NCBI RefSeq assembly: GCF_001457595.1 | Contig: NZ_LN831039.1 | Span: forward strand, 3,840,001 to 3,872,000 | DNA: 32,000 nt | Source: Mycolicibacterium smegmatis | GTDB lineage: Bacteria > Actinomycetota > Actinomycetes > Mycobacteriales > Mycobacteriaceae | Direction of reading: 5' to 3' | Part shown: positions 3,640 through 32,000 of the stretch, in pieces | Layout: the number at the start of each line of letters is the position of its first letter | How positions within the stretch are numbered: the first letter of the stretch is position 1 | Notes under the pieces: model-generated | Database searches by the model: none | What the model saw: only the letters and a program-made list of their open reading frames with translations | Told to the model about the DNA's origin: nothing | Translations under genes and position numbers: made by a program

Positions 3640-4086
3640 ATGCAGCGGTTTTCGGTCGGAGGACGACTGAGGCAACGCTGGATGTTTCTGGTGGCGATCG
3701 TGGTGATCGTGGTCGCCGGTTTCACCGTGTACAGGCTCCACGGGGTTTTCGCCTCGCAGGACGTCACGTCCACGCCCAGTAATTCCGCCAATGAGATCGT
3801 TCAGTTCAACCCGAAACACGTCGTCATGGAGGTCATGGGCCCGCCAGGCGCGGTAGCCACCGTTACGTATCTGGACGTCGATGCCCAGCCGCAGCGCGCT
3901 GACAATGTCCCGCTGCCCTGGACCTACGACACGACCACCACCCAGCCCGGGGTGTTCGTCAACGTCCAGGCCCAGGGCGACCGCAGCTCGATCGGGTGCC
4001 GCATCACGATCGATGACGACGTCAAGGACGAAAGGTGGGTCAATACCGTGGACGCCTACACGTTTTGTCTGGAGAAGTCCGGATGA
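3640..4086 (+). CDS. mmpS: MmpS family membrane protein
   Basis: 148 aa with a single N-terminal TM (WMFLVAIVVIVVAGFTVY) and an MmpS-type C-terminus (AYTFCLEKSG). Stop TGA 4084-4086 overlaps the mmpL ATG 4083-4085 (ATGA coupling). Confidence 0.9.
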   Translation: MQRFSVGGRLRQRWMFLVAIVVIVVAGFTVYRLHGVFASQDVTSTPSNSANEIVQFNPKHVVMEVMGPPGAVATVTYLDVDAQPQRADNVPLPWTYDTTTTQPGVFVNVQAQGDRSSIGCRITIDDDVKDERWVNTVDAYTFCLEKSG

Positions 4087-12130: not shown

Positions 12131-12169
12131 TCGACTCAACCAGCGGCCCGTGCTCGATTGCGCCCGTGT

Positions 12170-12206
12170 CACCCCGGGGCGCTGACGCCAGGGGTTTCCC
12201 GGGGTG
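12170..12206 (-). terminator. Candidate hairpin just downstream of the LuxR-family gene
   Basis: CACCCCGGG (12170-12178) and CCCGGGGTG (12198-12206) form a perfect 9-bp GC-rich stem with a 19-nt loop, 8 nt beyond the stop codon at 12214-12216. There is no U-tract. Confidence 0.3.
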
Positions 12207-12213
12207 CACGGAC

Positions 12214-14961: not shown

Positions 14962-15054
14962 GCCGGCATGAACGTACGTTCCGCGAAAATCGATGTCAGC
15001 CGGTCGCACCGACTTCGCGCCGGCCGCACCCCGTTCACTCCGTCCAGGGTGCCG

Positions 15055-18436: not shown

Positions 18437-19033
18437 CTACTCGCTGGATGGCGCGGCAAGACTAGTGCGTACCCGGCGGCGTCCTCGATGCAGGCGGGAC
18501 ATCACCGTGCCGATCGACACGCCCGTGGCCTCGGCGACCTGCTTGTAGGACAGCCCCACCACGTCCGCGTAGTAGATGGCCATCCGGTAGGTCTCGGGCA
18601 ATGCCCGGATCGCCGCGGTGAGCCGTCCGTCGGGAATGGACTCCAGCACGGCGGCCTCGGGGGTGCGCCACGGATGAGTCCGGCAGTCGGCCGGTGCCTC
18701 CTGGTAGAAGTCCGCGACGAGCAGCTCAGGAGGCCGGCGTGACCGGAGACGATGGCTGTCGACCCAGGCGTTGTGCATGATCCGGTGCAGCCACGCCGTG
18801 AGATTGGTGCCCTCGCGAAAAGTCCCGAACCCGGCGAACGCCCGCAACATGGTGTCCTGAAGAAGATCTTCGGCATCCTGGCGTGTGCCGGTCAGGTGCA
18901 GCGCCCCGATGAACAGGCGACCCTGCAACGGAAGTGTCTCGCGCTCGAAGCGGACGACGAGGTCCGGATCGGTCGGTGGTGATGGGGTCGGGTTGCGCGG
19001 CGATGCTGTCGGTTCGGCGAGTGGAGTGATCAC
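18437..19033 (-). CDS. ECF (sigma-70 family) RNA polymerase sigma factor, SigH-like
   Basis: Region 2: DAEDLLQDTMLRAFAGFGTFREGTNLTAWLHRIMHNAW. Region 4: LPETYRMAIYYADVVGLSYKQVAEATGVSIGTVMSRLHRGRRRV. From memory, this closely resembles the mycobacterial SigH pattern. Confidence 0.85.
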   Translation of the reverse strand: MITPLAEPTASPRNPTPSPPTDPDLVVRFERETLPLQGRLFIGALHLTGTRQDAEDLLQDTMLRAFAGFGTFREGTNLTAWLHRIMHNAWVDSHRLRSRRPPELLVADFYQEAPADCRTHPWRTPEAAVLESIPDGRLTAAIRALPETYRMAIYYADVVGLSYKQVAEATGVSIGTVMSRLHRGRRRVRTSLAAPSSE

Positions 19034-19099
19034 GGGGGATCCTCTCGGTGCGGGGCGGCCCCGATCGGGCGGCGGGTGTGTCCGTTCGAGGTTCCGCCC

Positions 19100-20200
19100 G
19101 ATCCGCTCTCACTCGCATCGGCAGGTGCCTAGCGGAAGTGGCTAGGTGTAGGAGGGCACGACGTTGGTGACGCCTACACGGAGCCTAGAGACTGGTGGCT
19201 GGCCGCCGGATCCACTGTGCGGCCGGTGGTAGTTGTAATGGATGTTCCAGATGGCTATTGCGGATGAGCGGGCGTCTTCGTTGGTGAACTCCCGAGCGTA
19301 GAGCAGTTCCTCCGCCAGGATGCGTTGGTAGCGTTCCACTTTCCCGTTATGGCGAGGCGTGTACGGCTTCGTGCGTTGGTGCCGAGCCCGCTGGCCGATG
19401 CTTCGGGCGAAGTCGCCGGACCGGTAGCAGGCTCCGTTGTCGGTGACGATTCGGTGGATGTGGATGATGCCGTGGGCGGCGAACCAGACCTTCGCTCGGG
19501 CGAGAAAGGTAGCCGCGGTCGCGCCCTTCTCGTCAGCGAGCGGCTCGGTGTAGGCAAGCCGGGAGTATCCGTCGATCGCCGAGTGCAGGTAGGTATAGCC
19601 AGCCTTGGCGCCGGCGGTCTTGGCGCGGTCGGCCGCGCGGTTCTGCGCGCTATCGCGGCCATGGATGCGCCATCCGCCGCCATCGGGGATGCGACCAACT
19701 TTCTTGACGTCGAGGTGGATCATATGGCCGGGCCAGCGGGCGGTGATCCGGCCCGGCTGGCGGTTAGATTCACCGTTCGGGTCGAGGAACCTTCGGTGAT
19801 TGAGGCCGAGGTGTGCCAGGTGCCGCGTGACGGTACGGCGGTTGAGCTGGATGCCCTGCTCGGACAGGTCATGTGTAATCCGCTGGGCTGACCACTTTTT
19901 CTCACGCCGACTGGTCTCGATCAGGGCGACTACGTGCGCTGGCGTTGCGGTGGGGCTGTGATGAGGCGTGGAGGAACGGTCGTGTAGGCCGAGTTCGCCG
20001 TGGCGTCGCCATCGATTGACCCACTTGCTCGCGCAGGCACGAGAGATGCCCATTTCCTTGGCTACGTGGGCGATGGGTCTGTTGCGGCATCGCTCGATGA
20101 GCCGATGGCGACCTTCGATCGTCAGCGGCGCGTTCTTGTGGGTCACTTTGTCGGACTGGGCGCGGATGCACGGCGCGCGGTGTCGCGGCTGTCGATGGCT
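19100..20200 (-). mobile_element. IS481-family insertion sequence (boundaries approximate, inverted repeats not confidently resolved)
   Basis: A single transposase ORF fills about 1 kb, as in IS481-type elements. The best candidate ends (19115-19143 vs reverse complement of 20141-20169) match at only about 14 of 29 positions, giving a 1055-bp element. No target-site duplication was found. Confidence 0.55.
19142..20146 (-). CDS. IS481-family transposase (HTH + DDE/rve integrase core)
   Basis: N-terminal HTH (IAHVAKEMGISRACASKWVNRW). DDE core: HLDVKK, LHSAIDGYSRLAY, TDNGACYRS, KPYTPRHNGKVERYQRIL. Confidence 0.9.
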   Translation of the reverse strand: MTHKNAPLTIEGRHRLIERCRNRPIAHVAKEMGISRACASKWVNRWRRHGELGLHDRSSTPHHSPTATPAHVVALIETSRREKKWSAQRITHDLSEQGIQLNRRTVTRHLAHLGLNHRRFLDPNGESNRQPGRITARWPGHMIHLDVKKVGRIPDGGGWRIHGRDSAQNRAADRAKTAGAKAGYTYLHSAIDGYSRLAYTEPLADEKGATAATFLARAKVWFAAHGIIHIHRIVTDNGACYRSGDFARSIGQRARHQRTKPYTPRHNGKVERYQRILAEELLYAREFTNEDARSSAIAIWNIHYNYHRPHSGSGGQPPVSRLRVGVTNVVPSYT

Positions 20201-20721: not shown

Positions 20722-21762
20722 TCATGACAAAGAATTGAGGCACGGCATGGCGAGGGCGGTGAAGTCGCCATCGTCGGCTGATCGGATGGTGGCCGGTTGA
20801 TCGGCGCCACGGAGGTCGAGCATCAAGTCGCTGCCCAGTGCGTGGCTGATCGCCGGGTACAACGTGGTCAGCTCGAACCAGACGGTCAGGTCGGGGCCGG
20901 ATGCGTTTCCGTCGAGTTCCACCGCGCAGTCAGGCAGCACCACGCTCGGCTGGCTGGCAGCTATTCGAAGGCCGATCCTCTCCGGAGCCTGTTGCTCCAG
21001 TGCCTTGAGCAGGTCTTTCTTCTCGACGGTGACGCGATGTGTCACAGCGGGGAGCGAACTGAACATGAGCTTGTAGTCAGGAAAGGCCTCAGTCAGCAGA
21101 CGACAGTGCGCGACGGTGCTGTCGACCATGCGCAGGCCCAGGGTCTGTTCGTTTGCTTCCAGCGTCACGACGGGGCTTCGTCTGAGCCGCGAGGCTACGG
21201 CCCGAAGATCGTCTCCGGCGAGCGTCCCCGCCCAGGATGTGGCAGAGGGTTGGCTGGGCACCAGCGTCCGCGTGGCCAAGCGGTAGCGATCGGTCGCGGT
21301 CAGCGAGATGGTATCGGGATTCGATTCCAGGCGTACACCATTCAGGATGGGTAAGTCGGCATTGTGCGTCGTGGTAGCCACGACCTGGTCGATCGCTGCT
21401 GCGAGGACCGGGCCCGAGAGCGTGCACAGATTGAGGTGAGCCGCTTCGCCAAGGGAGGCCTTGAGCGTCGCGGCAGCCCGTTGCATCCCGGCTGCCTCGG
21501 CGGCAACCTTGGCTACGTGATCGTCGATCATTTGCGCCGCCTCCTGAGTGCCGGCGGAGAAGAATCTGCCGATGGCGGGCAGCGACATCCCGATCTCGCG
21601 CAGCTGACGCAACTGCAAGGCGCGGTCCAGCTGCTCCTCGCTATAGAGCCGGTATCCCGTGATTCGGTCGACCTGCTCGGGATTAAGCAAACCTGCATCG
21701 TCGTAGAACCGCAAAGCGCTGGCGGTCAGTCCGGCGAGCTTGGCGAACGCACCGATCGACAT
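20722..21762 (-). CDS. MerR-family HTH fused to two DNA polymerase III beta-clamp-like domains
   Basis: N-terminus MSIGAFAKLAGLTASALRFYDDAGLLNPEQVDRITGYRLYSEEQL is a MerR HTH. The rest carries clamp-like motifs: LPILNGVRLE..ISLTATDRYRLA, RLLTEAFPDYKLMF and C-terminal FTALAMPC. Compare E. coli DnaN LPILGNLLLQ..LSLTGTDLEMEM, KLVDGRFPDYRRVLP and YVVMPMRL (from memory). Start taken at ATG 21762; the ORF is open to TTG 21801. Confidence 0.75.
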   Translation of the reverse strand: MSIGAFAKLAGLTASALRFYDDAGLLNPEQVDRITGYRLYSEEQLDRALQLRQLREIGMSLPAIGRFFSAGTQEAAQMIDDHVAKVAAEAAGMQRAAATLKASLGEAAHLNLCTLSGPVLAAAIDQVVATTTHNADLPILNGVRLESNPDTISLTATDRYRLATRTLVPSQPSATSWAGTLAGDDLRAVASRLRRSPVVTLEANEQTLGLRMVDSTVAHCRLLTEAFPDYKLMFSSLPAVTHRVTVEKKDLLKALEQQAPERIGLRIAASQPSVVLPDCAVELDGNASGPDLTVWFELTTLYPAISHALGSDLMLDLRGADQPATIRSADDGDFTALAMPCLNSLS

Positions 21763-21939
21763 CAACTCTGGGTTGGTCACCCGAACATCGTCAGGCCTCA
21801 ACCAGCTTGAATGTCAACCGCGACGCGATCCGTCAACAACGTCTTGCCCCGCAACAGCTAGGCTTGCCGCTCCCGCATTTATCGCGTGCTCCGGCACGTG
21901 CCCTCACTGTTTGCGCCGTCGAGCAGCGTGCCCCTCGAG

Positions 21940-23412: not shown

Positions 23413-23850
23413 ATGACACACCTCTGGGGCACACTCATCGGGGTCGCGGTCGGCCTGCTCATCGTGTGGGCAGCGCTGCTGATCGCACTGGCCCTGGCAC
23501 GCCCCAAGGACCTCAGCGTCACCGATGCACTGCGATTGCTGCCCGACACAGTGGTTTTGATGCGACGCCTGGCCGCCGATCCGCAACAGCCCCGCGGTGT
23601 CCGGGTCCGTCTGCTCCTGCTGCTGGTCTACCTGATCCTGCCGATCGACCTCGTGCCCGATTTCATCCCTTTTCTCGGCTACGCGGATGACGCCATCGTC
23701 GTTGCAGTCGCGCTGCGCTCGGTCGCCCGGCGCGCGGGGTACGGCGCCCTCGACAAGCACTGGCCGGGCACCCCGGAAGGACTCGAATCCGTTCGCCGTC
23801 TCGCCGGCATCCCGAGTCCACCCGAACCCGGAGAATCTCCGGAACAATAG
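23413..23850 (+). CDS. DUF1232 / YkvA-family membrane protein
   Basis: 145 aa with an N-terminal TM and the signature ILPIDLVPDFIPFLGYADDAIV. Confidence 0.8.
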   Translation: MTHLWGTLIGVAVGLLIVWAALLIALALARPKDLSVTDALRLLPDTVVLMRRLAADPQQPRGVRVRLLLLLVYLILPIDLVPDFIPFLGYADDAIVVAVALRSVARRAGYGALDKHWPGTPEGLESVRRLAGIPSPPEPGESPEQ

Positions 23851-23884: not shown

Positions 23885-25054
23885 CTAGTCGTCGTCGGCG
23901 GCGCCAGGGACGGCCGGTGCCTCGATACCCGGATGTTGTGCGCCGTCGTTGGCGCCCGAGGCGTCGTCGTCGCCGGCAATGAGCCCGAACACCGAGAAAC
24001 TCACGATCCAGTAGGCGACGTACCCCACCAGCAGCACCACTCCGTGCCAGCGGCGCAGGTGTCCGGTGAACAGCGCGTACGCCGCGAATCCGTTGATCAC
24101 GATGAGCGCAGGCAGATGCCAGCTGAAGACCTCCGGGGTGATCAACAGCGCACCGCCCAGCAGGGCGATGATGCCGACCTTCGCGGTCACCGAGAACACC
24201 ACACTGCCGATGACGTTGCCGACCCCGATCGCGGGCGCACCCCGCCGGAAGGGCTCGACGGTCAGGAAGATGTCCTCCAGGGACAGCACCAGTGTCGCGA
24301 TCGTCGCGCCGAAGACCGTGCCACCGATCGCGTATTCGTCGACGATGCCCTCGGTGCCCTCGGCCATGACCCAGGCACCGAGCACGACGCCGACCAACGC
24401 GACAAGCGCGAGCAGCAGCAACGCCCACCCAGGACGCTTGTTCGCCTTCGCCTTCGCCACATCACCGGTCTCGTAGAGACTGCCGCCGCCGCCCGGCCGA
24501 CCACCACCACCGGAGTTCCTGGCGCCGCTGCCGACGAGTTCGCGACTGTGCGCCACTTCCACGGCGTTCTCGGCTTCCACCACCTCCAGCACCTCCGCAC
24601 TGCGGAAGGTCGGCACGGCCCGCCGGGACTCGCGGTAGGCGATGTAGGCGATGAACACCACGAACAACGCGATGAGCACCACCCCGGTCACCCGGCTCAA
24701 CCCGCCGAGCAAAGCAGGCACGATCAACACGAGAGGTGCGATGGCGAACAGCGCGATGTAGTCCTTCGGGATCTCCACCGGCCTGGGCGCGAGGATGGCG
24801 GCCAGCGCGAGCACCAGGCCGGTCAGCGAGACGACGGTTCCGAAGATGACTCCGAGCGCGATGTCTTCGCTGCCCTCCAGGTTGAGCACCACGCCGAAGG
24901 CCAGATCGTCGAATTCGATGCCCGTGAACAGGATTGCGAGCAGAAAGAGCGATATCGCCAGGCCGCGCGCCGCTCCGACCAGATAGGTGATGAGTTTCTC
25001 GGCGCTGTAGATCAACAGGGCCGCACCGACGGTGAAGGCAATGATCGACGTCAT
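23885..25054 (-). CDS. CaCA-family (sodium/calcium exchanger-type) cation antiporter
   Basis: 389 aa from ATG 25054 (MTSIIAFTVGAALL). There are two multi-TM halves separated by a charged Gly-rich loop. Each half carries an acidic alpha-repeat-like motif (FTGIEFDDLAFG and LSLEDIFLTVEP). The ORF-track N-terminal extension to 25216 overlaps the miniprotein gene and is rejected. Confidence 0.75.
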   Translation of the reverse strand: MTSIIAFTVGAALLIYSAEKLITYLVGAARGLAISLFLLAILFTGIEFDDLAFGVVLNLEGSEDIALGVIFGTVVSLTGLVLALAAILAPRPVEIPKDYIALFAIAPLVLIVPALLGGLSRVTGVVLIALFVVFIAYIAYRESRRAVPTFRSAEVLEVVEAENAVEVAHSRELVGSGARNSGGGGRPGGGGSLYETGDVAKAKANKRPGWALLLLALVALVGVVLGAWVMAEGTEGIVDEYAIGGTVFGATIATLVLSLEDIFLTVEPFRRGAPAIGVGNVIGSVVFSVTAKVGIIALLGGALLITPEVFSWHLPALIVINGFAAYALFTGHLRRWHGVVLLVGYVAYWIVSFSVFGLIAGDDDASGANDGAQHPGIEAPAVPGAADDD

Positions 25055-25065
25055 CGGCAAACCTC

Positions 25066-25272
25066 TCAGTGTTGGTGTACTTCGCAGGCGCAGTACATGT
25101 TTCGACACGTGTAGCAGGCAGGCATGCCCTGGCAGCGCGGGCAGACGTCGCAGCTGACCGGCTCGGTGTGCCGGTGGGCATCCACGGAGTTGTACGATTC
25201 GCCGCAGTGGTAGCACGGCGGACGCCCGCTGTTGTCGTCCAATTCGCGAAGCTGATCGGTGGCCGAGTTCAC
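25066..25272 (-). CDS. Cys/His-rich miniprotein, 68 aa (zinc-ribbon or metallothionein-like)
   Basis: The GTG start overlaps the pqqE TGA (GTGA). Sequence: MNSATDQLRELDDNSGRPPCYHCGESYNSVDAHRHTEPVSCDVCPRCQGMPACYTCRNMYCACEVHQH, with 9 Cys and 5 His in the last 49 residues. Hand-counted GC3 is about 82 percent, which is coding-like. It ends 11 nt before the antiporter ATG. Confidence 0.5.
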   Translation of the reverse strand: MNSATDQLRELDDNSGRPPCYHCGESYNSVDAHRHTEPVSCDVCPRCQGMPACYTCRNMYCACEVHQH

Positions 25273-26399
25273 CGTCGTACCTGCAGGGGCAGCTGCGTCC
25301 GGGTGCGTCCGGGATTCGGTCGGGGAATCATCACACCGTCGTGCGGCAGCGTCGGGTCGTTGGCTGCCGCCACCGCCGTCTCGACCAGCCCGTGATCCGG
25401 GGAGAGATGACAGACGGGGTCGGTGCGGGCAGCGTCGCCGGTGAGCGCGAAAGCCTGGCAACGACAACCGCCGAAGTCGATCTCGCGACGGTCGCAGGTG
25501 CGGCACGGGTCGGGCATCCAGTCGTCGCCGCGGAACTGCCGGAAGAGTGGCGACTGCATCCAGATCCACTCCAGTGAATGCCTACGTACGTTGGTACCGG
25601 GCAGGCTCAGGCCGCGCGCCAACTCGTGGGCCGCTGGGCACGGCAGGGCTTCGCCGTTCGGCACCACGGTGAACTGGCGGCGTGCCCAGCCGGCCATGCA
25701 GGGTTTGGGATACTTCTCGTAGTAGTCGGGGATGACGTAGATGATCTCCATCCGGTTCCCGAGCCGGCCTCGAGCCGCCCGCACCACCGTCTGCGCGCGC
25801 TCCAATTGGTCTCTGCTGGGCAGCAATTCGGCGCGGTTGCGCCCCGCCCAGCCGTAGTACTGCGTGTTGGCCAGCTCGATCCGGTCGGCCTCCATCACGG
25901 CTGCCATGTCGAGGATGGCGCCGATCCGATCGATGTTCTGCCGGTGCAGCACCACGTTCAGCGTGAGCGGCCAACCCAGCTTCTTCACCAGCCGCGCGAC
26001 GTCGTGTTTGCGCTCGAACGAGGCGGTGCCGGCTATCCGGTCGGACACCTCTGGCTGATCGGCCTGAATGCTGACCTGGACATGGTCGAGCCCCGCGTCG
26101 CGCAGCTGCTCGGCGCGACGGGTCGAGAAGCCGAGCCCGCTGGTGATCAGATTGGTGTACATGCCGAGCCCGTTGGCACACCGCACGAGGTCGACGATGT
26201 CGTGGCGCTGCATGGGCTCGCCGCCCGAAAGGTGTACCTGAAGTACGCCCAGCTCGGCGGCCTCGGCGAACACCCTTTGCCATTCCACGGTGGACAGCTC
26301 GTCGCGATAGTTCTGCAGCGCAACGGGATTGGAGCAGTAGGGGCAGTGCAGCGGACAGGCATAGGTGAGCTCGGCGAGCAACGCATACGGCCTATCCAT
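25269..26399 (-). CDS. pqqE: PqqE, radical SAM/SPASM PQQ biosynthesis enzyme
   Basis: [25 protein letters not shown] (CxxxCxxC) and a SPASM-type Cys cluster near the C-terminus. ATG 26399 overlaps the pqqD stop by 8 nt. Confidence 0.9.
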   Translation of the reverse strand: MDRPYALLAELTYACPLHCPYCSNPVALQNYRDELSTVEWQRVFAEAAELGVLQVHLSGGEPMQRHDIVDLVRCANGLGMYTNLITSGLGFSTRRAEQLRDAGLDHVQVSIQADQPEVSDRIAGTASFERKHDVARLVKKLGWPLTLNVVLHRQNIDRIGAILDMAAVMEADRIELANTQYYGWAGRNRAELLPSRDQLERAQTVVRAARGRLGNRMEIIYVIPDYYEKYPKPCMAGWARRQFTVVPNGEALPCPAAHELARGLSLPGTNVRRHSLEWIWMQSPLFRQFRGDDWMPDPCRTCDRREIDFGGCRCQAFALTGDAARTDPVCHLSPDHGLVETAVAAANDPTLPHDGVMIPRPNPGRTRTQLPLQVRR

Positions 26400-26670
26400 G
26401 ATCGATCTCCATCCCGTGTTTGGCGACGAGGTCGGCGACGAAGCGTCGGACGTCGCCCTCGGCGATCTCGTCGTAGCGACTGCCGAGCTCGACCTGGATC
26501 TCCGCGATGGTCCGCCGGGCGTCACACAGCTCCACGATCGCCACGCCGGTGTCGTTGAGCACCCAGATCGTCTCCGGCGAGAGCAGGGCGTACTGCCCGC
26601 GCGCGGCGTCGAACCTCATCCGGACGTGGGGAGCCAGCCGCGGCCGGGCGGCGTCGTCAGCGATTTCCAT
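26392..26670 (-). CDS. pqqD: PqqD, PQQ biosynthesis peptide chaperone
   Basis: 92 aa from ATG 26670 ([42 protein letters not shown]...). It overlaps the pqqC end by 14 nt. Confidence 0.85.
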
Positions 26671-27373
26671 AAGCCTGGTCGATCGCATCGAGCATGCTCC
26701 ACAGCACGTCGCACTTGAAGGACAAGGCCGACAGCGCGGCCGTCTGGGTTTCCTGCGTGACGCAATGCCGTCGCACCACCTCAAGACCGTGTTCGGAGTC
26801 GCGGGGCGCCTGGGTGATGCGAGATCTGAAGTAAGAGAGTTCTTTCGGGTCGATCCAGGTGTAGTGACGTTCGAACGCCGCGAGCCGCTCGGCCATCAGG
26901 TCGGGTGCGAACAGCTCGGTCAGCGACGAGGCCACCGCCTCCAGCCATGGCCGGGTGCGGGTGAAGTTCACGTAGGCGTCGACGGCGAAGCGCACGCCCG
27001 GCAGCAGGTGTCGTGCGTCTTCGACCTCCGCCCTGGTCAAACCGACCGCTTCGGCCAGTCGCAGCCACGCCTCGATTCCCCCGGTTCCTTCGGTCGTGCC
27101 GTCGTGGTCGATGATTCGCTGGACCCAACGGCGCCGTATCTCACGGTCCGGGCAGGTGCTGAGGATCGCTGCGTCTTTCCGGGGGATGTTCACCTGGTAG
27201 TAGAAGCGGTTGGCCACCCACCCGCGGATCTCCTCGGGGCTGCACTGCCCGGTGTTCATCCGACGGTGGAAGGGATGCAGGTGGTGGTAATCCTTGACGT
27301 GCTCGCGAAGCGCTTCCTCGAACTCGTCGGGCGTCAGTGCCTGGGTTACTGCTCCTCGCGCCAGCGGTGCCAT
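26657..27373 (-). CDS. pqqC: PqqC, pyrroloquinoline-quinone synthase
   Basis: 238 aa: [46 protein letters not shown]. The SD GAGGAG spans the pqqB stop. Confidence 0.9.
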
Positions 27374-27382
27374 GGTTGCTCC

Positions 27383-28285
27383 TCAGATCTCCAGCTCGAG
27401 CCCGTCAGCGGCGACCTCGATGCCGTGGCGGTCGAGAATCCGCCGCTCCGGGGAGTCCTCGAGCAGGACGGGGTTGGTGTTGTTGATGTGGATGTAGACC
27501 TTGCGGTCGATCGGCAGCGATGCCAGCAGCTCGAGGCTGCCGCCGGCACCGGCGATCGGGACATGTCCCATCTCGCGTGATGTCTTGCCTGCCAGGCCGA
27601 GCCGGGGCATCTCGTCGTCGCGCCAGCAGGTGCCGTCGATCAGCAGGCCCGAGCAGTCGGCCAGTTCCTCGAGGACCTCCGGGGTCAGCCGTTGCACGCA
27701 CGGCAGGTACACCAGGCTGCGGCCACTACCTGCGTCGGTGAGTCGGTAGCCCACCACCCGGCCATGTGTCGCGGCTCCCGGGAATCGCATGGACTTGTCG
27801 GTGGGTACGTCGAACGCGCGGTACGACAACCCGTGTGATCCGTCGTCGAGCGGGACCTCGACCCCGGGCACCACCGGCTGCCACTTGACCGGGCAGTACG
27901 CCTCCAGTGTCCTGAGTACCCCGGTCCCTGTGGTGAGGGTTTCGTGCACCGACTCGGTCGCGTGGACTTCGAGACCACGCCCTTCCCGCATCAGCAGCAG
28001 TCCGAGGGTGTGGTCGAGTTCGGCGTCGGTGAGCAGCACAGCCTGAAGCCGGACCACTCTGCCTTCGTCGGGGTGCAGATCCGGGAAAGCCTCGATCTGG
28101 GATTGGATGTCCGGCGAGGCGTTGAACAAAAACCACTGTTTCCGATCAGCACTCACCGCGATCGACGACTGTGAGCGTGCCACGCAGGGTCGTGCGCCGG
28201 TCCGCACCGCACGGCACTGGGGACACCCGCAGTTCCACTGCGGAAACCCGCCGCCCGCTGCCGATCCGAGCACCCTCACCCACAC
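27383..28285 (-). CDS. pqqB: PqqB, metallo-beta-lactamase-fold PQQ biosynthesis protein
   Basis: MWVRVLGSAAGGGFPQWNCGCPQC, a typical PqqB N-terminus. 300 aa, GTG start. Confidence 0.9.
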   Translation of the reverse strand: MWVRVLGSAAGGGFPQWNCGCPQCRAVRTGARPCVARSQSSIAVSADRKQWFLFNASPDIQSQIEAFPDLHPDEGRVVRLQAVLLTDAELDHTLGLLLMREGRGLEVHATESVHETLTTGTGVLRTLEAYCPVKWQPVVPGVEVPLDDGSHGLSYRAFDVPTDKSMRFPGAATHGRVVGYRLTDAGSGRSLVYLPCVQRLTPEVLEELADCSGLLIDGTCWRDDEMPRLGLAGKTSREMGHVPIAGAGGSLELLASLPIDRKVYIHINNTNPVLLEDSPERRILDRHGIEVAADGLELEI

Positions 28286-28366
28286 AAGCGATCACTTCCT
28301 TCGTAGGAATACACGGCGGGGCGCCGGGCCGACCCGACCCGGCCCGACGCCCTCGCGGTGAGGCGA

Positions 28367-28480
28367 CTAGTCGTCGCCGTCCAGGACGGCCACGTATGCG
28401 GTCACCTCGGCGGAAACCCGGATCTCGGCGAACGTGGGACGCTCCCACTTCTGCAGGGCGCCTGCGGACTTCTTCTCCAT
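28367..28480 (-). CDS. pqqA: PqqA, PQQ precursor peptide (37 aa; below the ORF-track size cutoff)
   Basis: My own translation of the minus strand: MEKKSAGALQKWERPTFAEIRVSAEVTAYVAVLDGDD. It has the conserved W..P...EI.V..EVT.Y pattern (E-x3-Y crosslink pair). ATG preceded by GGAAGAGAG. Confidence 0.85.
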   Translation of the reverse strand: MEKKSAGALQKWERPTFAEIRVSAEVTAYVAVLDGDD

Positions 28481-28529
28481 GCTGTTCTCTCTTCCTTCTC
28501 TCGGGTTATGCGGATGCGTGGCGGACAGT

Positions 28530-30215
28530 TCAGTCGGGCAGTGTGAAGGCGATCAACGCGCTGCCGTGGCCCGCGCCGAGCATCCCGGGGAGGATGCCCT
28601 CGAGCCAGCCGCCCCAGCCGACCGGTACGACGACGTACTGCTTGCCGTCGACACTGTAGGTCGAACAACTTCCGTGATGCCCACTGCCACAGTTGAATTC
28701 CCACAACTTCTCGCCGGTGTTGGCATCCAGTGCGGCGAACTCGCCGGTCGGGGTGCCTGCGAACACCAGGTCTCCCGCGGTGGCGAGAACCGATGCGGCC
28801 ATCGGGTAGTCGAGACGCCAGCGCCACTTCTCCTCACCGTGGGAGTCGAACGCGCTCACCGAGCCCGCCATGTCGTCGATGTCCACCTGAACGGCAGCAC
28901 CCCAGTACGGGATACCCTCCCGGAACTCGCGTCGACGGCGGGTGGCCGTGGCGCCCACGTCGGCGACGGGAACGTAGAACATGTCCGTCTTCGGGCTGTA
29001 CGCCGCGTGCGTCCATTCCTTCGCCCCGGCCGGTCCCGGGTAGAAGTGGACGGGCTCACCCTCCTTGTCGGGATACTTGCGCGGCGTCACCTTGCCGTCG
29101 CGGGTGATGACACCCCAGTCGATCCGATCCACGAACGGGGTGACGTGCTGCAGTTCCCCGTTGGTGCGGTCCAGCACGAAGAAGTAGCCGTTCTTGTCGA
29201 AGTGGCCGAGCAGCTTCTTGCCGTCCCGCTCGAAGAGCGTCATCTCCATCGTGGAGTCGTAGTCCCACAGGTCGTGCGGGGTGAACTGGTAGTGCCACTT
29301 GATTTCTCCGGTGTCGACGTCGAGCGCGACGACGGAGTCGGTGTAGAGGTTGTCGCCCTCGCGCACTGCACCGTCGAAGTCGGGCGCCGGGTTACCGGTG
29401 CCGGCGTAGTACAGGTTCAGCTCGGGGTCGTACGTCCCGGTCACCCAGTGGTTGGCACCACCACGCTGCCAGGCCTCGCCGTCGGCAGGCCAGGTCTCCG
29501 AGCCCGGCTCCCCCGGCTTGGGAACGGTGTAGGTGCGCCACAGGTGCTCGCCGGTCTTGAGGTCCCAGCAGTCGATGTGTCCACGCACGCCGAACTCGCC
29601 ACCGGCGCTGCCGGTGATCAGCGTGTTCTTGACCACCAGCGGAGCCAGGGAGGCGCTCTCACCGGCCCGTACGTCGCCGATCGTCTTCTCCCAGACCATC
29701 TCTCCGTTGCTGGCGTCCAGCGCGAGCAGGTGGGCGTTGGGTGTCACGAAGAAGACCTTGCCGTCGGCCACCGCGCAGCCACGGTTGACGTTCCCGCAGC
29801 ACAGCGACACGTCGAAGGGCACTGCGTGCTTGTAGCGCCAGAGCTGCTGGCCCGTTTTCGCGTCCAGCGCCCAGAACCAGCCGTCCCACCCGGTGACGTA
29901 CATGACGCCGTCCACGACCAGCGGGCACGCCTCGAACGCATAGGTCGACGCCCCCGCCATGTGCCCGGAGGCCCCTGCCTGGAACACCCACGCCGGACCG
30001 ATGCGCTTGACGTTCTCGGTGTTGATCTGGTCAAGGAGGCTGTACCGCTTGCCGTCATAGGCCCCGTAATAGGTGAGCCAGTTGTGCGACTCCGCCCGCG
30101 CATTGAGGAGGCGGTTGTAGTCGACATCGGTTGTCACCGCGGGCGCGGTTCCCGGAATGGGGCTCAGCGCCGACTGATTGATCGCTTCGCCGGCGTCGAC
30201 GTATTCAACGGTCAT
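28530..30215 (-). CDS. PQQ-dependent alcohol/methanol dehydrogenase, XoxF-like (D-x-D type), no signal peptide
   Basis: 561 aa eight-bladed propeller quinoprotein. Key features: vicinal Cys SLCCGNVNRG (C139-C140), GGEFGVRG (E207), GTGNPAP (N275) and PHDLWDYDS (D318, D320; codons 29262-29264 and 29256-29258). ATG 30215 is preceded by a strong SD (AGGAAGGG). The N-terminus MTVEYVDAGEAINQSALSPIPG is not hydrophobic. Confidence 0.9.
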   Translation of the reverse strand: MTVEYVDAGEAINQSALSPIPGTAPAVTTDVDYNRLLNARAESHNWLTYYGAYDGKRYSLLDQINTENVKRIGPAWVFQAGASGHMAGASTYAFEACPLVVDGVMYVTGWDGWFWALDAKTGQQLWRYKHAVPFDVSLCCGNVNRGCAVADGKVFFVTPNAHLLALDASNGEMVWEKTIGDVRAGESASLAPLVVKNTLITGSAGGEFGVRGHIDCWDLKTGEHLWRTYTVPKPGEPGSETWPADGEAWQRGGANHWVTGTYDPELNLYYAGTGNPAPDFDGAVREGDNLYTDSVVALDVDTGEIKWHYQFTPHDLWDYDSTMEMTLFERDGKKLLGHFDKNGYFFVLDRTNGELQHVTPFVDRIDWGVITRDGKVTPRKYPDKEGEPVHFYPGPAGAKEWTHAAYSPKTDMFYVPVADVGATATRRRREFREGIPYWGAAVQVDIDDMAGSVSAFDSHGEEKWRWRLDYPMAASVLATAGDLVFAGTPTGEFAALDANTGEKLWEFNCGSGHHGSCSTYSVDGKQYVVVPVGWGGWLEGILPGMLGAGHGSALIAFTLPD

Positions 30216-30228
30216 TCTTGTTCCCTTC

Positions 30229-30699
30229 CTAGGGTCGCGGCTGATCGGGACGGTCGAGACGGGCCTCCGGTGGCACTTCGCCGAGAACGACGATCGCGGC
30301 GGTCAGACCCCGGCCTTCGTCGTTGCCGCCCGGCGAGCTGTACCAGTAGTAACCCGGGCCGTCGAGGTGCAGGACCGCCTTGCCCTTCGAGTGGTTGAGG
30401 AGCCAGAGGAACTTCCTGTCCCCGTTGCTCGGGAACAGCGCCGCGTGTGTGTTCTTGTCGTCGTTGATGACCGTCAGCTCGATGAAACCGCCGTGCGGCA
30501 TCACCAGAATCGCCGGATCCCAGGCGATCTCGTCCTCTTTGATCCGGATCGTCGCCTCCATCGTGCCATCGGCCCGTTCGGTCGCGGTGGCGATGGAACC
30601 AGTGCCCAGGACCCGGCCGAGCGCTGCGTGATTCTGCTTGTCCAAGCCGAGTTCGCGCAGTAGGTCGGATCGCTGATCTGGCTGATCTGTGACCGTCAT
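30229..30699 (-). CDS. Cupredoxin-like protein lacking type-1 copper ligands (no Cys)
   Basis: 156 aa. The pattern ATIRIKEDEIAWDPAILVMPHGGFIELTVINDDKNTHAALF ... GKAVLHLDGPGYYWYSSPGGNDEGRGLTAAIVVLG aligns by eye with cupredoxin-domain proteins (...HNF... / ...YxFxCxxPGHxxxGM). Here the Cys, second His and Met positions read S, G/N and L. The protein contains no Cys at all. Confidence 0.55.
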   Translation of the reverse strand: MTVTDQPDQRSDLLRELGLDKQNHAALGRVLGTGSIATATERADGTMEATIRIKEDEIAWDPAILVMPHGGFIELTVINDDKNTHAALFPSNGDRKFLWLLNHSKGKAVLHLDGPGYYWYSSPGGNDEGRGLTAAIVVLGEVPPEARLDRPDQPRP

Positions 30700-30843
30700 A
30701 GGACCTCACCTTCTCGTCGGTGAAACTTCGTTGTTTGTCGAGTGAAAAGTGCGGCGGACCGCATTCCCGTTCCATTCCGTTGATTTCGGCGATCCGGAAC
30801 ACGAGTTGGATGAGCGTTCAGAGTCGCGGACGCCGCTTGGCCG

Positions 30844-30870
30844 GTTACATCTCGCTGTGCGAGATGTAAC
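30844..30870. promoter_or_regulatory. Perfect 12-3-12 palindrome between katG and the PQQ operon; operator or hairpin
   Basis: GTTACATCTCGC TGT GCGAGATGTAAC. It lies 145 nt upstream of the first operon ATG (30699) and about 245 nt downstream of the katG stop. Confidence 0.4.
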
Positions 30871-31114
30871 TACGAAGACGATAGGTCCGGTCAACCCTTC
30901 GGTACAGGTGAGACCGCAGGGCGGTCATAGTGTGCCGTTCGCATGCCGCCAGGCACCGTTCGCAGTGATTCCGATCACGCGGACGAGACCGGCGGCCCGT
31001 CGAAAGTACGCATCGGCGACAGGCAGGACCTTCCCGTTCGCTGTGAAAGTCACACGTACGCACCATCGTTGACCGCCGCGCGCGCGTGGCGGGCCCGGGG
31101 CGGCGATCGCCGAA

Positions 31115-32000
31115 TCAGGTTCGGTCGAACAGGTCCAGGTTCATCACCTTGTCCCACGCGGAGACGAAGTCACGGACGAACTTCTCCTCAGCGTCCGCGC
31201 TCGCGTACACCTCGGAGATTGCGCGTAGCACGGGGTCTGACGCGAAGGACAGGTCGACCCGGCTCGCGATCCACGTGACCTCGCCGGTGCGCCGGTCGCG
31301 ACCCTCGTATGCCGCCGTCCAGTCGGCGGTGTCCGCCCTCGGTGTCCACTCGATGTTCACGTCGAGCAGGTTGACGAAGAAGTCGTTGCTCAGCGCGCCC
31401 GGCGATGCGGTGAACACACCCAGCGGGGATCCGCCGTGGTTGGCGCCGAGCACACGCAAACCGCCGAGCAGTACCGTCATCTGCGGCGCAGTCAGGGTCA
31501 ACTGGCTCGCACGGTCGACGAGCAGATGCTCCGGAGGTGGTCGGTTGCCCTCGCCGACGTAGTTGCGGAATGCGTCCGCGGTGGGTTCGAGTGCGGAGAA
31601 CCACTCGATGTCGGTCCACTCCTGTGGTGCGTCCGTACGCCCCAGCCGGCAGGGGACCTCGATGGGGTGACCGGCTTCGGCGGCGGCATGTTCGACCGCC
31701 GCGCAGCCGCCGAGCATGATCAGATCGGCAGCGGAGATCTGTTTGCCCCCGCGATGGGAATCGTTGAACCGTCGGCGAATCCGCTCCAGTCGGTCCAGGA
31801 CGATCGCCAGCTTCTCCGGCTCGTTGACCGCCCAGCTCCGCTGCGGTTCGAGACGGATTCGCGCGCCGTTCGCGCCGCCGCGCTTGTCACTGTTCCGGAA
31901 CGTCGAAGCCGAGGCCCACGCCGTGGTGACGAGTTGCGATACCGACAGTCCCGAACCGAGGATCTCACGCTTGAGTGCGGCGACGTCGTCGGCGTCCGCG
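31115..32000 (-). CDS. katG: Catalase-peroxidase KatG, C-terminal part (5' end outside the window)
   Basis: The frame is open to the window edge: ...[54 protein letters not shown]...[16 protein letters not shown]...[21 protein letters not shown], the typical KatG C-terminal domain. Confidence 0.9.

What the first reader, a model, noticed from the sequence alone, without database searches (positions are those of the whole stretch)
23885..30870. Compact nine-gene PQQ module with non-canonical accessory genes
Seen in the sequence: nine minus-strand ORFs are packed tightly enough to be one transcription unit. Junction by junction, there are gaps of 13, 49, 81 and 9 nt, then overlaps of 14, 8 and 4 nt, then a gap of 11 nt. 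The gene order is cupredoxin-like, PQQ dehydrogenase, pqqA-B-C-D-E, Cys/His miniprotein, CaCA antiporter.

Established knowledge: in proteobacterial XoxF/MxaF and ExaA/PedH systems the dehydrogenase is periplasmic. It is partnered with a c-type cytochrome (XoxG/MxaG/ExaB) and often XoxJ. None of these is encoded here.

Inference: this is a self-contained quinoprotein module in a mycolate-type actinobacterium. Its electron acceptor, metal supply and substrate are unexplained. The three accessory genes are the obvious candidates for those roles.
Basis: partly seen in the sequence, partly recalled or inferred. Interest (0 to 1): 0.8.

Follow-up and report, generated by a model that had tools for sequence, protein, structure and literature searches.

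The report
Cytoplasmic lanthanide-type PQQ alcohol dehydrogenase module
A Mycobacterium-like genome carries a conserved gene set for a PQQ alcohol dehydrogenase that appears to work inside the cell, has the lanthanide-type active site, and is paired with a copper-less relative of a blue-copper protein and a catalase-peroxidase instead of the usual cytochrome c.

Summary
The nine minus-strand genes and all eight junction distances are real. The "cupredoxin-like" gene belongs to the already curated MSMEG_3727 PQQ-associated family, so the cassette as such is known from M. smegmatis (MSMEG_3721-3727).

What appears to be new:
- **No export signal.** Neither the dehydrogenase nor its partner has a signal peptide, and this holds in 76 of 76 orthologues.
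- **Lanthanide-type site.** All dehydrogenase orthologues carry the Asp-x-Asp motif (WDYD).
- **Copper site lost.** The partner has a cupredoxin fold. Its exported relatives in other phyla keep the Cys/His/Met copper ligands; the actinobacterial branch has Ser/Asp/Leu at those positions.
- **The unit is larger than nine genes.** A katG paralogue (cut by the window end) and a LytTR regulator lie upstream in most of 79 related loci. A conserved 21-bp-period direct repeat lies in front of the operon.
- **Interchangeable transporter.** The slot after pqqE holds either a CaCA or an MntP-type transporter. The Cys/His miniprotein is a real, unnamed family.
- **Methanol hint.** RuMP formaldehyde-fixation genes flank the module in 14 of 79 loci.

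Best reading: a cytoplasmic lanthanide/PQQ alcohol (probably methanol) dehydrogenase whose electrons end on O2 or H2O2, with KatG handling the peroxide. The electron route is inferred. I rate it a new variant of a known kind, interest 0.7.

The parts
31115..32000 (-). 3' part (last 294 codons) of a katG catalase-peroxidase paralogue. The gene runs off the window end.
   Evidence: Pfam peroxidase, E 2.5e-28. It is 83% identical to the C-terminus of the 744-aa KatG of L010, which matches NF011635 at 1180 bits. katG lies on the same strand 150-800 nt upstream of the cupredoxin-like gene in most loci.
30935..30961 (-). Direct repeat GAACGG-N15-GAACGG (21-bp period), the putative binding site of the LytTR regulator. 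It lies 262 nt upstream of the ATG at 30699.
   Evidence: The exact pattern occurs 88-359 nt upstream of the cupredoxin-like gene in 57 of 76 loci from all orders. It also occurs upstream of detached pqqB operons.
30844..30870 (-). Perfect palindrome GTTACATCTCGC-ACA-GCGAGATGTAAC in the leader. It is specific to this window.
   Evidence: Read in the sequence. As RNA it folds at -20 kcal/mol, z -6.3. It is absent from 12 close relatives.
30229..30699 (-). MSMEG_3727-family protein: cupredoxin fold, no signal peptide, copper-ligand positions His85 / Ser122 / Asp127 / Leu132.
   Evidence: TIGR04339 at 268 bits and PF23509. The AlphaFold2 model matches CupA, auracyanin and the CuA domain in Foldseek. 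Ligand mapping is against exported homologues.
28530..30215 (-). PQQ-dependent alcohol dehydrogenase of the methanol/ethanol family. It has no signal peptide, a vicinal Cys-Cys, and the WDYD motif.
   Evidence: TIGR03075 at 649 bits. The best solved relative is PedH, 6zcw, E 2e-108. The N-terminus MTVEYVDAGEAI sits at the start of the open frame and WDYD is present in 76 of 76 orthologues.
28367..28480 (-). pqqA precursor peptide (37 aa) with the E-V-T-A-Y cross-link motif.
   Evidence: TIGR02107 at 38 bits against a cut-off of 20. Translation.
28319..28352 (-). G+C-rich 14-bp hairpin immediately after pqqA.
   Evidence: The 93-nt intergenic segment folds as RNA at -49.6 kcal/mol, z -2.8.
27383..28285 (-). 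pqqB
   Evidence: TIGR02108 at 380 bits.
26657..27373 (-). pqqC
   Evidence: TIGR02111 at 342 bits.
26392..26670 (-). pqqD
   Evidence: TIGR03859 at 93 bits.
25269..26399 (-). pqqE, a radical SAM/SPASM enzyme.
   Evidence: TIGR02109 at 514 bits.
25066..25272 (-). Cys/His-rich miniprotein (68 aa) from an unnamed conserved family. Its start codon overlaps the pqqE stop codon by 4 nt.
   Evidence: 39 homologous clusters. Nine invariant Cys plus His35 and His66. Found next to the pqqE/transporter genes in 30 loci. Third-codon-position bias against relatives. No Pfam or NCBIfam family.
23885..25054 (-). Divergent CaCA-superfamily cation antiporter. An MntP-type transporter takes its place in most relatives.
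   Evidence: PF01699 matches in two stretches at 90 bits. TIGR00367 scores 83 bits, below its cut-off. Orthologues are in L015, L037, L050, L069, L075 and L082.

Best explanation
The window holds most of a conserved actinobacterial regulon for a PQQ alcohol dehydrogenase that works in the cytoplasm.

**Layout.** A regulator (GAF plus LytTR domains) lies outside the window. It probably binds a 21-bp-period direct repeat in front of the operon. The order is katG paralogue, repeat, copper-less cupredoxin-like protein, dehydrogenase, pqqA (followed by a hairpin), pqqBCDE, Cys/His miniprotein, cation transporter.

**Cofactor and metal.** PQQ is made in the cytoplasm and used there. The dehydrogenase has the lanthanide-type Asp-x-Asp site. 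The transporter (CaCA here, MntP-type in most relatives) most likely moves the enzyme's hard cation, Ln3+ or Ca2+.

**Partner protein.** The cupredoxin-like protein descends from a copper-binding, exported electron acceptor of this dehydrogenase clade. It has lost three of the four copper-ligand residues (Cys, His, Met). I take it to be a tightly bound subunit or adaptor.

**Electron route (inferred).** Actinobacteria have only low-potential menaquinone, no soluble cytochrome c, and little cytoplasmic copper. I therefore infer that PQQH2 is re-oxidised by O2, or by H2O2 through KatG. The co-resident KatG removes or uses the peroxide.

**Substrate (inferred).** Probably methanol or other short alcohols.

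**Shown:** gene identities, lack of signal peptides, the WDYD motif, the ligand replacement, the synteny, and the repeat.
**Inferred:** the metal, the direction of transport, the complex between dehydrogenase and partner, the electron route, and the substrate.
For: - **Gene identities:**
- **No room for a signal peptide:** the dehydrogenase open frame begins 13-70 nt after the stop of the upstream gene, with the conserved N-terminus MT[VI]EY[VI]DAGEAI, in 76 of 76 orthologues.
- **Contrast with exported relatives:** homologous gene pairs from metagenomes (one protein labelled Thermoanaerobaculia, Acidobacteriota) carry lipoprotein signal peptides on both proteins.
- **Metal site:** WDYD in 76 of 76 orthologues. 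It aligns with WDFD of lanthanide-dependent PedH and WDYD of XoxF. The Ca-dependent enzymes ExaA and 1kb0 have WDFS and WDYT. The metal-binding Glu and Asn positions also align.
- **Cupredoxin fold:** Foldseek probability 1.0 to CupA, auracyanin and the CuA domain.
- **Copper ligands:** Cys/His/Met in 116 of 117 exported homologues, Ser/Asp/Leu in 118 of 120 actinobacterial ones.
- **Obligate pairing:** the partner gene is directly upstream of the dehydrogenase in all loci of both branches.
- **Conserved neighbours:** katG in 69 and the regulator in 57 of 79 loci. No other gene outside the pqq genes and the transporter is widely conserved. The same order occurs on a Streptomyces linear replicon.
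- **Operator:** the direct repeat is present in 57 of 76 loci at a median of 222 nt upstream. It also precedes detached pqq operons.
- **Transporter swap:** close relatives (84-86% nucleotide identity) have pqqE-MntP-mini where the window has pqqE-mini-CaCA.
- **Substrate hint:** hxlA and hxlB lie within 10 kb in 14 of 79 loci. RuMP-cycle sugar-phosphate genes lie next to the Cryobacterium module.
- **Literature:** M. smegmatis needs mycofactocin, not PQQ, for growth on ethanol in standard medium (PMC6529628). That fits an enzyme left inactive without lanthanides.
Against: - No experiment bears on location, metal, substrate or electron acceptor.
- MntP and CaCA family members are best known as exporters. 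That fits poorly with supplying a cytoplasmic enzyme.
- The transporter and the miniprotein travel with pqqBCDE rather than with the dehydrogenase when the two are separated (L013, L016, L044). They may therefore serve PQQ synthesis.
- A vicinal disulfide, conserved here, is unexpected in a reducing cytoplasm.
- The katG link could reflect general peroxide stress or the H2O2 made by PqqC.
- katG is not adjacent in three exported-branch loci.
- RuMP genes are absent from this window.
- The model of the partner protein is of medium quality (pLDDT 69), and its ligand loop is the least confident part.
Confidence: 0.55

Rival explanations
1. The cupredoxin-like protein is still the electron acceptor. 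It would use a different redox metal at the remodelled His/Ser/Asp site, for example iron or a hard-ligand copper site. It would pass electrons on, possibly through the Cys-rich miniprotein acting as a rubredoxin- or ferredoxin-like carrier, to the respiratory chain.
For: - Exported homologues keep a complete type-1 copper ligand set and sit next to the same dehydrogenase with no cytochrome c nearby. The ancestral role was therefore probably electron transfer.
- Azurin is the natural acceptor of type II PQQ alcohol dehydrogenases (PMC8348568).
- His85 and many Asp/Asn/Ser residues around the old copper site are invariant.
- The miniprotein has CxxCG, CxxCxxC and CxxC motifs.
Against: - Cys, His and Met are all replaced in 118 of 120 members.
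- The miniprotein is missing from more than half of the loci, including all Saccharopolyspora and most Pseudonocardiaceae loci. It cannot be a general acceptor.
- The miniprotein gave no rubredoxin or ferredoxin match.
- Menaquinone is too low in potential to accept electrons from PQQH2 (established redox potentials; my own knowledge).
Confidence: 0.2
2. The cupredoxin-like protein is a metallochaperone. It would deliver Ln3+ or Ca2+ to the dehydrogenase in the cytoplasm, and the transporter would import that ion.
For: - The best structural match is CupA, a metallochaperone with a cupredoxin fold.
- The former copper site is lined with invariant hard-ligand residues: N79 D80 D81 N83 H85, N92 D94, N102 H103 S104, S121 S122 N126 D127 E128.
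- The PQQ-linked CaCA proteins carry unusually acidic alpha-repeat motifs, FTGIEFDD and LSLEDI.
Against: - One-to-one gene pairing, very high conservation and an invariant C-terminal tail shared with the copper-bearing exported branch all point to a permanent partner rather than a transient chaperone.
- No lanthanide-binding motif of a known kind is present.
- The idea cannot be tested with these tools.
Confidence: 0.15
3. The enzyme works outside the cytoplasm after all. It would be exported by a non-classical route, the CaCA or MntP transporter would export its cation, and katG would simply be a co-regulated stress gene.
For: - Every characterised PQQ alcohol dehydrogenase is extracytoplasmic (established knowledge).
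- Both transporter families are typical exporters.
- The vicinal Cys-Cys is conserved (sequence).
Against: - Neither protein has a Sec, Tat or lipoprotein signal in any of 76 orthologues, whereas the homologous pairs examined from other bacteria (L084-L088) have lipoprotein signals on both proteins.
- The copper site is lost in step with the loss of the signal peptide.
- All conserved partners (PQQ synthesis, KatG, and the RuMP enzymes present in some loci) are cytoplasmic.
Confidence: 0.08

Closest known systems
M. smegmatis cassette MSMEG_3721-3727 (pqq genes, PQQ-ADH MSMEG_3726, MSMEG_3727 family TIGR04339/PF23509), with katG MSMEG_3729
   Same: The gene families and order are the same. The cupredoxin-like gene scores 268 bits against TIGR04339. 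The cassette and its lone PQQ dehydrogenase were noted by Haft 2011 (PMC3023750) and by Krishnamoorthy 2019 (PMC6529628). MSMEG_3729 is one of three katG genes and is not the orthologue of M. tuberculosis katG (PMC9325904).
   Different: In the papers I could search, none assigns a function, location, metal or partner role. The M. smegmatis locus itself was not available to me, so its transporter and miniprotein content is not checked.
PedH (P. putida KT2440, PDB 6zcw) and XoxF: lanthanide-dependent PQQ alcohol/methanol dehydrogenases
   Same: PedH is the best solved relative (E 2e-108). The Asp-x-Asp motif, metal-binding Glu and Asn, and vicinal Cys-Cys are shared.
   Different: PedH and XoxF are periplasmic, have signal peptides, and use cytochrome c (PedF, XoxG). 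Here there is no signal peptide and no cytochrome c. A copper-less cupredoxin-like partner and katG stand in their place.
Exported branch of PF23509 paired with a lipoprotein PQQ-ADH (Acidobacteriota and soil metagenomes)
   Same: These are homologous two-gene units with the same order and spacing. They share WDYD in the dehydrogenase and the C-terminal tail GEVPxEARLDRP in the partner.
   Different: Both proteins carry lipoprotein signal peptides. The partner keeps the Cys/His/Met copper ligands. No pqq genes, katG, LytTR regulator, transporter or miniprotein are attached.
Azurin or amicyanin as cupredoxin acceptors of quinoprotein dehydrogenases
   Same: A small cupredoxin is dedicated to a quinoprotein dehydrogenase (PMC8348568). 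This probably applies to the exported branch.
   Different: The window's protein lacks the copper-binding Cys, the second His, and the Met.
CupA (S. pneumoniae), a metallochaperone with a cupredoxin fold
   Same: It is the top Foldseek match (4f2e, E 6e-6). It shows that a cupredoxin fold can be used for something other than electron transfer.
   Different: Sequence identity is 12%. CupA binds Cu(I) through Cys and Met, which are absent here. CupA is also membrane-anchored.
AlgR/AgrA-type LytTR regulators and their direct-repeat sites
   Same: The regulator has a LytTR domain. The operator is a direct repeat with a 21-bp period. Its core CCG(T/C)TC, read on the other strand, resembles the AlgR site CCGTTCGTC (that site is from my own knowledge).
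   Different: The N-terminus is a MimR_N/GAF sensor rather than a receiver domain. Binding was not tested.

Membership tests
pqqABCDE biosynthesis operon | All five gene products match the curated equivalog models, and PqqA has the Glu-x3-Tyr motif. | tested here: met
   TIGR02107, TIGR02108, TIGR02111, TIGR03859 and TIGR02109 are all above their cut-offs. PqqA contains EVTAY.
[quoted passage not shown] | Score above the curated cut-off. Vicinal Cys-Cys, catalytic Asp, and metal-binding Glu and Asn. | tested here: met
   649 bits against a cut-off of 480. LCCGN, GGEFG, GNPAP and WDYD align with PedH, ExaA and XoxF.
Lanthanide-dependent PQQ-ADH (XoxF/PedH/ExaF type) | An extra metal-binding Asp two residues after the catalytic Asp (D-x-D). 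| tested here: met
   WDYD is in the window and in 76 of 76 orthologues. Ca-dependent enzymes have S or T at that position.
Lanthanide-dependent PQQ-ADH (XoxF/PedH/ExaF type) | Activity that depends on Ln3+. | not testable with these tools
   This needs enzyme or growth assays with La/Ce against Ca.
Lanthanide-dependent PQQ-ADH (XoxF/PedH/ExaF type) | Periplasmic location (signal peptide) and a dedicated cytochrome c partner (XoxG or PedF). | tested here: not met
   There is no signal peptide and no room for one. No CxxCH motif occurs in the nine proteins. No recurrent cytochrome gene appears in 79 loci.
MSMEG_3727 family PQQ-associated protein (TIGR04339 / PF23509) | Score above the curated cut-off and a position next to PQQ genes. 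| tested here: met
   268 bits against a cut-off of 75, and 266 bits against a cut-off of 27. The gene is always directly upstream of the dehydrogenase.
Cupredoxin / type-1 blue copper protein | Greek-key beta-sandwich cupredoxin fold. | tested here: met
   The AlphaFold2 model (pLDDT 69, pTM 0.69) matches CupA, auracyanin, the CuA domain and Cupredoxin_1 with probability 1.0.
Cupredoxin / type-1 blue copper protein | Copper ligand set His ... Cys-xn-His-xn-Met. | tested here: not met
   His85 is kept. The other positions are Ser122, Asp127 and Leu132. Exported homologues have GCPVxNHxGRGM there.
CaCA (Ca2+/cation antiporter) superfamily | Two Na_Ca_ex domains. | tested here: met
   PF01699 matches in two stretches at 90 bits.
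CaCA (Ca2+/cation antiporter) superfamily | Canonical alpha-repeat signature G(S/T)SxPE, and membership of the YrbG-type equivalog. | tested here: not met
   TIGR00367 scores 83 bits against a cut-off of 180. The motifs are FTGIEFDD and LSLEDIFLTVEP. The canonical signature is from my own knowledge.
HNH / zinc-ribbon proteins (considered for the miniprotein) | A significant profile match and the catalytic His-Asn-His pattern with two CxxC pairs. | tested here: inconclusive
   Only a marginal match to HNH endonuclease 4h9d (E 0.0016) and sub-threshold zinc-knuckle hits. The AlphaFold2 model is poor, pLDDT 58.

The most novel reading that the evidence does not exclude
KatG is the terminal electron acceptor of a cytoplasmic lanthanide/PQQ alcohol dehydrogenase. 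The copper-less cupredoxin would act as the docking adaptor. The system would then be an alcohol:H2O2 oxidoreductase. It would also provide the first physiological electron donor for a catalase-peroxidase and the first cytoplasmic lanthanide enzyme in Gram-positive bacteria.
Probability: 0.12. Interest if true: 0.9.

Novelty: new variant of a known kind. Interest (0 to 1): 0.7.

Why it matters
Every characterised PQQ alcohol dehydrogenase and every known lanthanide enzyme works outside the cytoplasmic membrane of Gram-negative bacteria and passes electrons to cytochrome c.

If this module works as read, three things follow:
- Actinobacteria, including mycobacteria, rhodococci, streptomycetes and arthrobacters (224 species-level genomes matched), would use PQQ and probably lanthanides inside the cell.
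- They would need a way to bring the metal in.
- They would have to solve the electron-acceptor problem differently, with peroxide chemistry as the leading candidate.

It would also explain why the M. smegmatis PQQ cassette has looked silent in standard, lanthanide-free media. It gives testable roles to a katG paralogue, to a curated family of unknown function (MSMEG_3727), and to an unnamed miniprotein family. The link to RuMP genes in some lineages suggests an unrecognised route of methanol use in Gram-positive soil bacteria.

Tried and rejected
- **Longer first gene.** Extending it to 30870 fails because an in-frame stop lies two codons before the ATG at 30699.
- **Known RNA elements.** Rfam gave no match anywhere in the window.
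- **Promoters and terminators.** The sigma-70 scan found 0 promoter-like sites and 4 terminator-like sites, no more than in shuffled sequence. It neither supports nor splits the operon.
- **The palindrome at 30844-30870 as a conserved operator.** Rejected, because it is absent from 12 close relatives.
- **Structure of the miniprotein.** The AlphaFold2 model was too poor (pLDDT 58) to search with. Profile searches gave only marginal HNH and zinc-knuckle hits.
- **Further conserved neighbours that could be an acceptor.** All-against-all clustering of ORFs in 79 loci found none beyond katG, the regulator, the pqq genes and the transporter. The same analysis on 83 exported-branch loci found no cytochrome c and no recurrent peroxidase.
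- **A degenerate KatG.** Rejected. The Arg/Trp/His, Tyr, Met and proximal-His motifs are all present.
- **Annotated records.** The one plasmid-collection hit (Streptomyces, NZ_CP109439) carries no annotation in the held table.
- **Literature.** Seven searches found no description of a Gram-positive or cytoplasmic lanthanide/PQQ dehydrogenase.
- **Not done.** The M. smegmatis locus itself could not be fetched.

Full report
**1. The observation**

The nine minus-strand ORFs are present. Their coordinates are:

| Gene | Coordinates |
|---|---|
| MSMEG_3727-family protein | 30229-30699 |
| PQQ alcohol dehydrogenase | 28530-30215 |
| pqqA | 28367-28480 |
| pqqB | 27383-28285 |
| pqqC | 26657-27373 |
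| pqqD | 26392-26670 |
| pqqE | 25269-26399 |
| Miniprotein (68 aa) | 25066-25272 |
| CaCA-type transporter | 23885-25054 |

Seven proteins pass curated NCBIfam cut-offs. CaCA passes only Pfam's cut-off, and the miniprotein matches nothing.

The stated 5' end (30870) is too far upstream, because a stop codon lies two codons before the ATG at 30699.

Downstream of CaCA lies a convergent DUF1232 gene (23413-23850, + strand), so the unit ends at 23885. No CxxCH motif occurs in any of the nine proteins. The nearest relatives are Mycobacterium genomes or bins at 84-88% nucleotide identity.

**2. What was already known**

The "cupredoxin-like" gene is a member of TIGR04339/PF23509, the "MSMEG_3727 family PQQ-associated protein" (268 bits against a cut-off of 75).

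[quoted passage not shown] Krishnamoorthy et al. (2019) mention MSMEG_3721-3727. They note that PQQ does not substitute for mycofactocin during growth on ethanol in their media (PMC6529628).

The cassette as a genomic association is therefore known, but I found no functional work on it.

**3. The dehydrogenase**

It belongs to the methanol/ethanol family (TIGR03075, 649 bits). Its best solved relative is the lanthanide-dependent PedH (6zcw, E 2e-108).

- **Metal site.** The alignments show the metal-binding Glu (GGEFG) and Asn (GNPAP) and the vicinal Cys-Cys. They also show WDYD, the catalytic Asp plus the extra Asp that marks lanthanide enzymes. PedH has WDFD and XoxF has WDYD. The Ca-dependent enzymes ExaA and 1kb0 have WDFS and WDYT.
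- **Conservation.** All 76 orthologues recovered from other genomes have WDYD.
- **No signal peptide.** All 76 begin with MT[VI]EY[VI]DAGEAI. In most of them, including this window, the frame is closed by a stop codon 0-10 codons upstream; in the rest the open stretch is the out-of-frame tail of the upstream gene, so there is no separate room for a signal peptide.

**4. The partner protein**

- **Conservation.** The family is very conserved, at 78-93% identity across four actinobacterial orders. It is also narrow, with 143 representatives at 50% identity.
- **Fold.** An AlphaFold2 model (pLDDT 69, pTM 0.69) matches cupredoxins with Foldseek probability 1.0: CupA, auracyanin, the CuA domain of N2O reductase and Cupredoxin_1 proteins.
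- **Exported relatives.** More distant family members have lipoprotein signal peptides and the motif GCPVxNHxGRGM plus an upstream His, which is a complete type-1 copper ligand set.
- **Ligand replacement.** In the window the same positions read H85 ... S122 ... D127 ... L132.
- **The split is clean.** Cys/His/Met occurs in 116 of 117 top exported-branch proteins, and Ser/Asp/Leu in 118 of 120 actinobacterial ones.
- **Exported pairs.** Exported-branch genes sit 12-18 nt upstream of a dehydrogenase orthologue that has its own lipoprotein signal peptide and WDYD. In 83 such loci the pair is the only widely conserved unit. No cytochrome c recurs there.
- **Shared tail.** Both branches keep the C-terminal tail GEVPxEARLDRP, which suggests a retained docking function.

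I infer that the ancestor was an exported blue-copper acceptor for this dehydrogenase clade, as azurin is for type II alcohol dehydrogenases (PMC8348568). The actinobacterial pair lost its export signals and its copper site together.

**5. The wider module**

A scan of one genome per species found relatives in 224 genomes, and 79 loci were analysed. The main results are:

- **Obligate pairing.** The partner gene is directly upstream of the dehydrogenase in every locus that extends far enough.
- **katG upstream.** A catalase-peroxidase gene lies upstream on the same strand, usually 150-800 nt away. It is present in 69 of the 79 loci.
- **Regulator.** Before katG, in 57 loci, lies a regulator with GAF and LytTR domains. 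Precomputed Pfam hits add a MimR_N domain.
- **katG in this window.** They are 83% identical to the KatG of L010, and that full-length relative keeps the catalytic Arg/Trp/His, the adduct Tyr and Met, and the proximal His. In M. smegmatis the corresponding gene, MSMEG_3729, is one of three katG genes and is not the orthologue of the M. tuberculosis gene (PMC9325904).
- **No other conserved neighbour.** Clustering of all ORFs found no other widely conserved neighbour.
- **Same order elsewhere.** A 1.56-Mb linear Streptomyces replicon carries the same order.

**6. A conserved operator**

Aligning the leader regions showed a direct repeat, GA(A/G)CGG-N15-GA(A/G)CGG, with a 21-bp period.

- The exact pattern lies 88-359 nt (median 222) upstream of the partner gene in 57 of 76 loci from all orders.
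- Only 83 such patterns occur in 1.33 Mb on both strands. My rough composition estimate is about 8 by chance.
- The pattern also precedes pqqB operons that are detached from the dehydrogenase (L013, L016, L044, L073).
- In the window it is at 30935-30961.
- Direct repeats at this spacing are typical of LytTR regulators, and the core resembles the AlgR site (my own knowledge).

Binding was not tested.

**7. Transporter and miniprotein**

After pqqE most loci have an MntP-type transporter, found in 42 loci. The window and six other loci have a CaCA protein instead.

Close relatives at 84-86% nucleotide identity read pqqE-MntP-mini where the window reads pqqE-mini-CaCA. Two unrelated cation-transporter families therefore fill one slot, which argues that they move the same ion.

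The PQQ-linked CaCA proteins share acidic motifs, FTGIEFDD and LSLEDIFLTVEP, in place of the usual signature.

The miniprotein is a real gene:
- It has 39 homologous clusters, nine invariant Cys, and invariant His35 and His66.
- It shows a third-codon-position bias against relatives.
- It lies at the end of the pqq genes, almost always beside the transporter, in 30 loci of Mycobacteriales, Micrococcales and Nocardioides.
- It has no family. The only lead is a marginal match to an HNH endonuclease (E 0.0016).

When the pqq operon is detached from the dehydrogenase, the transporter goes with pqqBCDE. That weakens a simple "metal for the dehydrogenase" reading.

**8. Substrate**

The RuMP genes hxlA and hxlB (TIGR03128 at 235 bits, TIGR03127 at 221 bits) lie within 10 kb of the module in 14 of 79 loci. 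These are Saccharopolyspora, several Micrococcaceae, Rhodococcoides and Flexivirga. The Cryobacterium locus is followed by GAPDH, PFK, RpiB, Rpe, transaldolase and transketolase genes.

This points to formaldehyde as the product, and so to methanol as the substrate, in those lineages. The window has no hxl genes.

One paper reports Arthrobacter isolates growing better on methanol with Ce3+ than with Ca2+ (PMC5606694).

**9. How it most likely works**

*Shown:* a pair of proteins without export signals; a lanthanide-type active site; on-site PQQ synthesis; a copper-less cupredoxin partner; a linked katG and regulator with a conserved operator; and an interchangeable cation transporter.

*Inferred from established redox chemistry (my own knowledge):*
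- PQQ/PQQH2 lies near +90 mV. It cannot reduce NAD+ or menaquinone (about -74 mV).
- Actinobacteria have no ubiquinone and no soluble cytochrome c, and bacteria avoid cytoplasmic copper.
- The high-potential acceptors left in the cytoplasm are O2 and H2O2.

The conserved katG then makes sense in one of two ways. It may scavenge H2O2 made by O2-dependent re-oxidation, as catalase does alongside alcohol oxidase in methylotrophic yeasts. Or it may itself be the oxidant. I favour the scavenger version.

Confidence is about 0.85 for the anatomy and about 0.35 for the electron route, which gives 0.55 for the statement as a whole.

**10. Rivals**

- The partner is still an electron carrier with a different metal (0.2).
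- The partner is a metallochaperone for Ln3+ or Ca2+ (0.15).
- The enzyme is exported by a non-classical route (0.08).

Their evidence is set out in the rival explanations.

**11. Novelty**

The cassette and the MSMEG_3727 family are known. In the papers I could search I found no description of:
- the cytoplasmic location;
- the lanthanide signature in Gram-positive bacteria;
- the cupredoxin ancestry and copper-site loss;
- the katG/LytTR regulon and its operator;
- the transporter swap;
- the miniprotein family.

I therefore rate it a new variant of a known kind. All functional claims rest on sequence inference.

Noticed in passing
window 30844-30870 (- strand): A perfect 12-bp-arm palindrome, GTTACATCTCGC-ACA-GCGAGATGTAAC, lies in the operon leader (RNA fold z -6.3). 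It is absent from 12 close relatives, so it is probably a strain-specific operator or hairpin.
   Followed up: partly
window 28319-28352 (- strand): A strong G+C-rich 14-bp hairpin lies right after the pqqA stop codon, with no U tract. It may stabilise pqqA mRNA or attenuate read-through into pqqB.
   Followed up: partly
window 10580-12460 (- strand): A monofunctional haem catalase (Pfam Catalase, E 7e-183) lies 11 kb from the module. The window therefore carries two H2O2-removing enzymes.
   Followed up: no
window 19082-19108 (- strand): A second match to the GA(A/G)CGG-N15-GA(A/G)CGG repeat lies about 75 nt upstream of an ECF-type sigma factor ORF (18437-19033). It could be chance or a further regulon member.
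   Followed up: no
window 19142-20146 and 20722-21801 (- strand): An IS481-family transposase lies next to an ORF that combines a MerR HTH domain with DNA polymerase III beta-clamp-like domains. An insertion sequence this close to the module fits with mobility of the region.
   Followed up: no
window 27-3266 (+) and 4035-6977 (+): A carboxylic-acid-reductase-like protein (AMP-binding, PP-binding, NAD_binding_4) and an MMPL transporter. Both are typical mycobacterial lipid genes.
   Followed up: no
window 12214-15009 and 15800-18376 (- strand): Two large regulator-like ORFs with an AAA_16 ATPase domain, 931 and 858 aa, in tandem. The first also has a LuxR-type (GerE) HTH.
   Followed up: no
window 23413-23850 (+ strand): A convergent DUF1232 gene lies directly after the module. 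It is syntenic in several mycobacterial relatives (L007, L009, L010, L063).
   Followed up: partly
L086 11920-17283: In one exported-branch locus a 1787-aa secreted protein with an animal-haem-peroxidase domain follows the dehydrogenase. It is seen in only 2 loci (L086 and one other), which may be copies of the same contig. It is notable given the katG link in Actinobacteria.
   Followed up: partly
L087, L088 and about 18 of 83 exported-branch loci, upstream of the cupredoxin gene: An ArsR-type HTH regulator and an AHSA1/SRPBCC protein lie upstream of the copper-type cupredoxin/dehydrogenase pair in L087 and L088. L087 also has a TonB-dependent receptor next to it. Two unannotated ORF clusters recur in about 18 and 10 of the 83 loci and may be these genes.
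   Followed up: partly
L017 6084-6440 and 10 further loci (mostly Saccharopolyspora), downstream of the dehydrogenase: A stand-alone protein of about 120-150 aa with only a LytTR domain follows the dehydrogenase where the pqq genes are absent.
   Followed up: no
L003 2643-3047, also L030, L058, L074: In Micrococcales an HbpS-like (GlcG family) haem-binding protein gene lies just upstream of the cupredoxin-like gene, and katG is inverted.
   Followed up: no
L034, L058, L041/L076 (Psychromicrobium, Micrococcaceae RIT 802, Pseudarthrobacter J47): Two copies of the cupredoxin-like/dehydrogenase/pqqA unit occur within 10-15 kb of each other. In L034 they are in inverted orientation.
   Followed up: no
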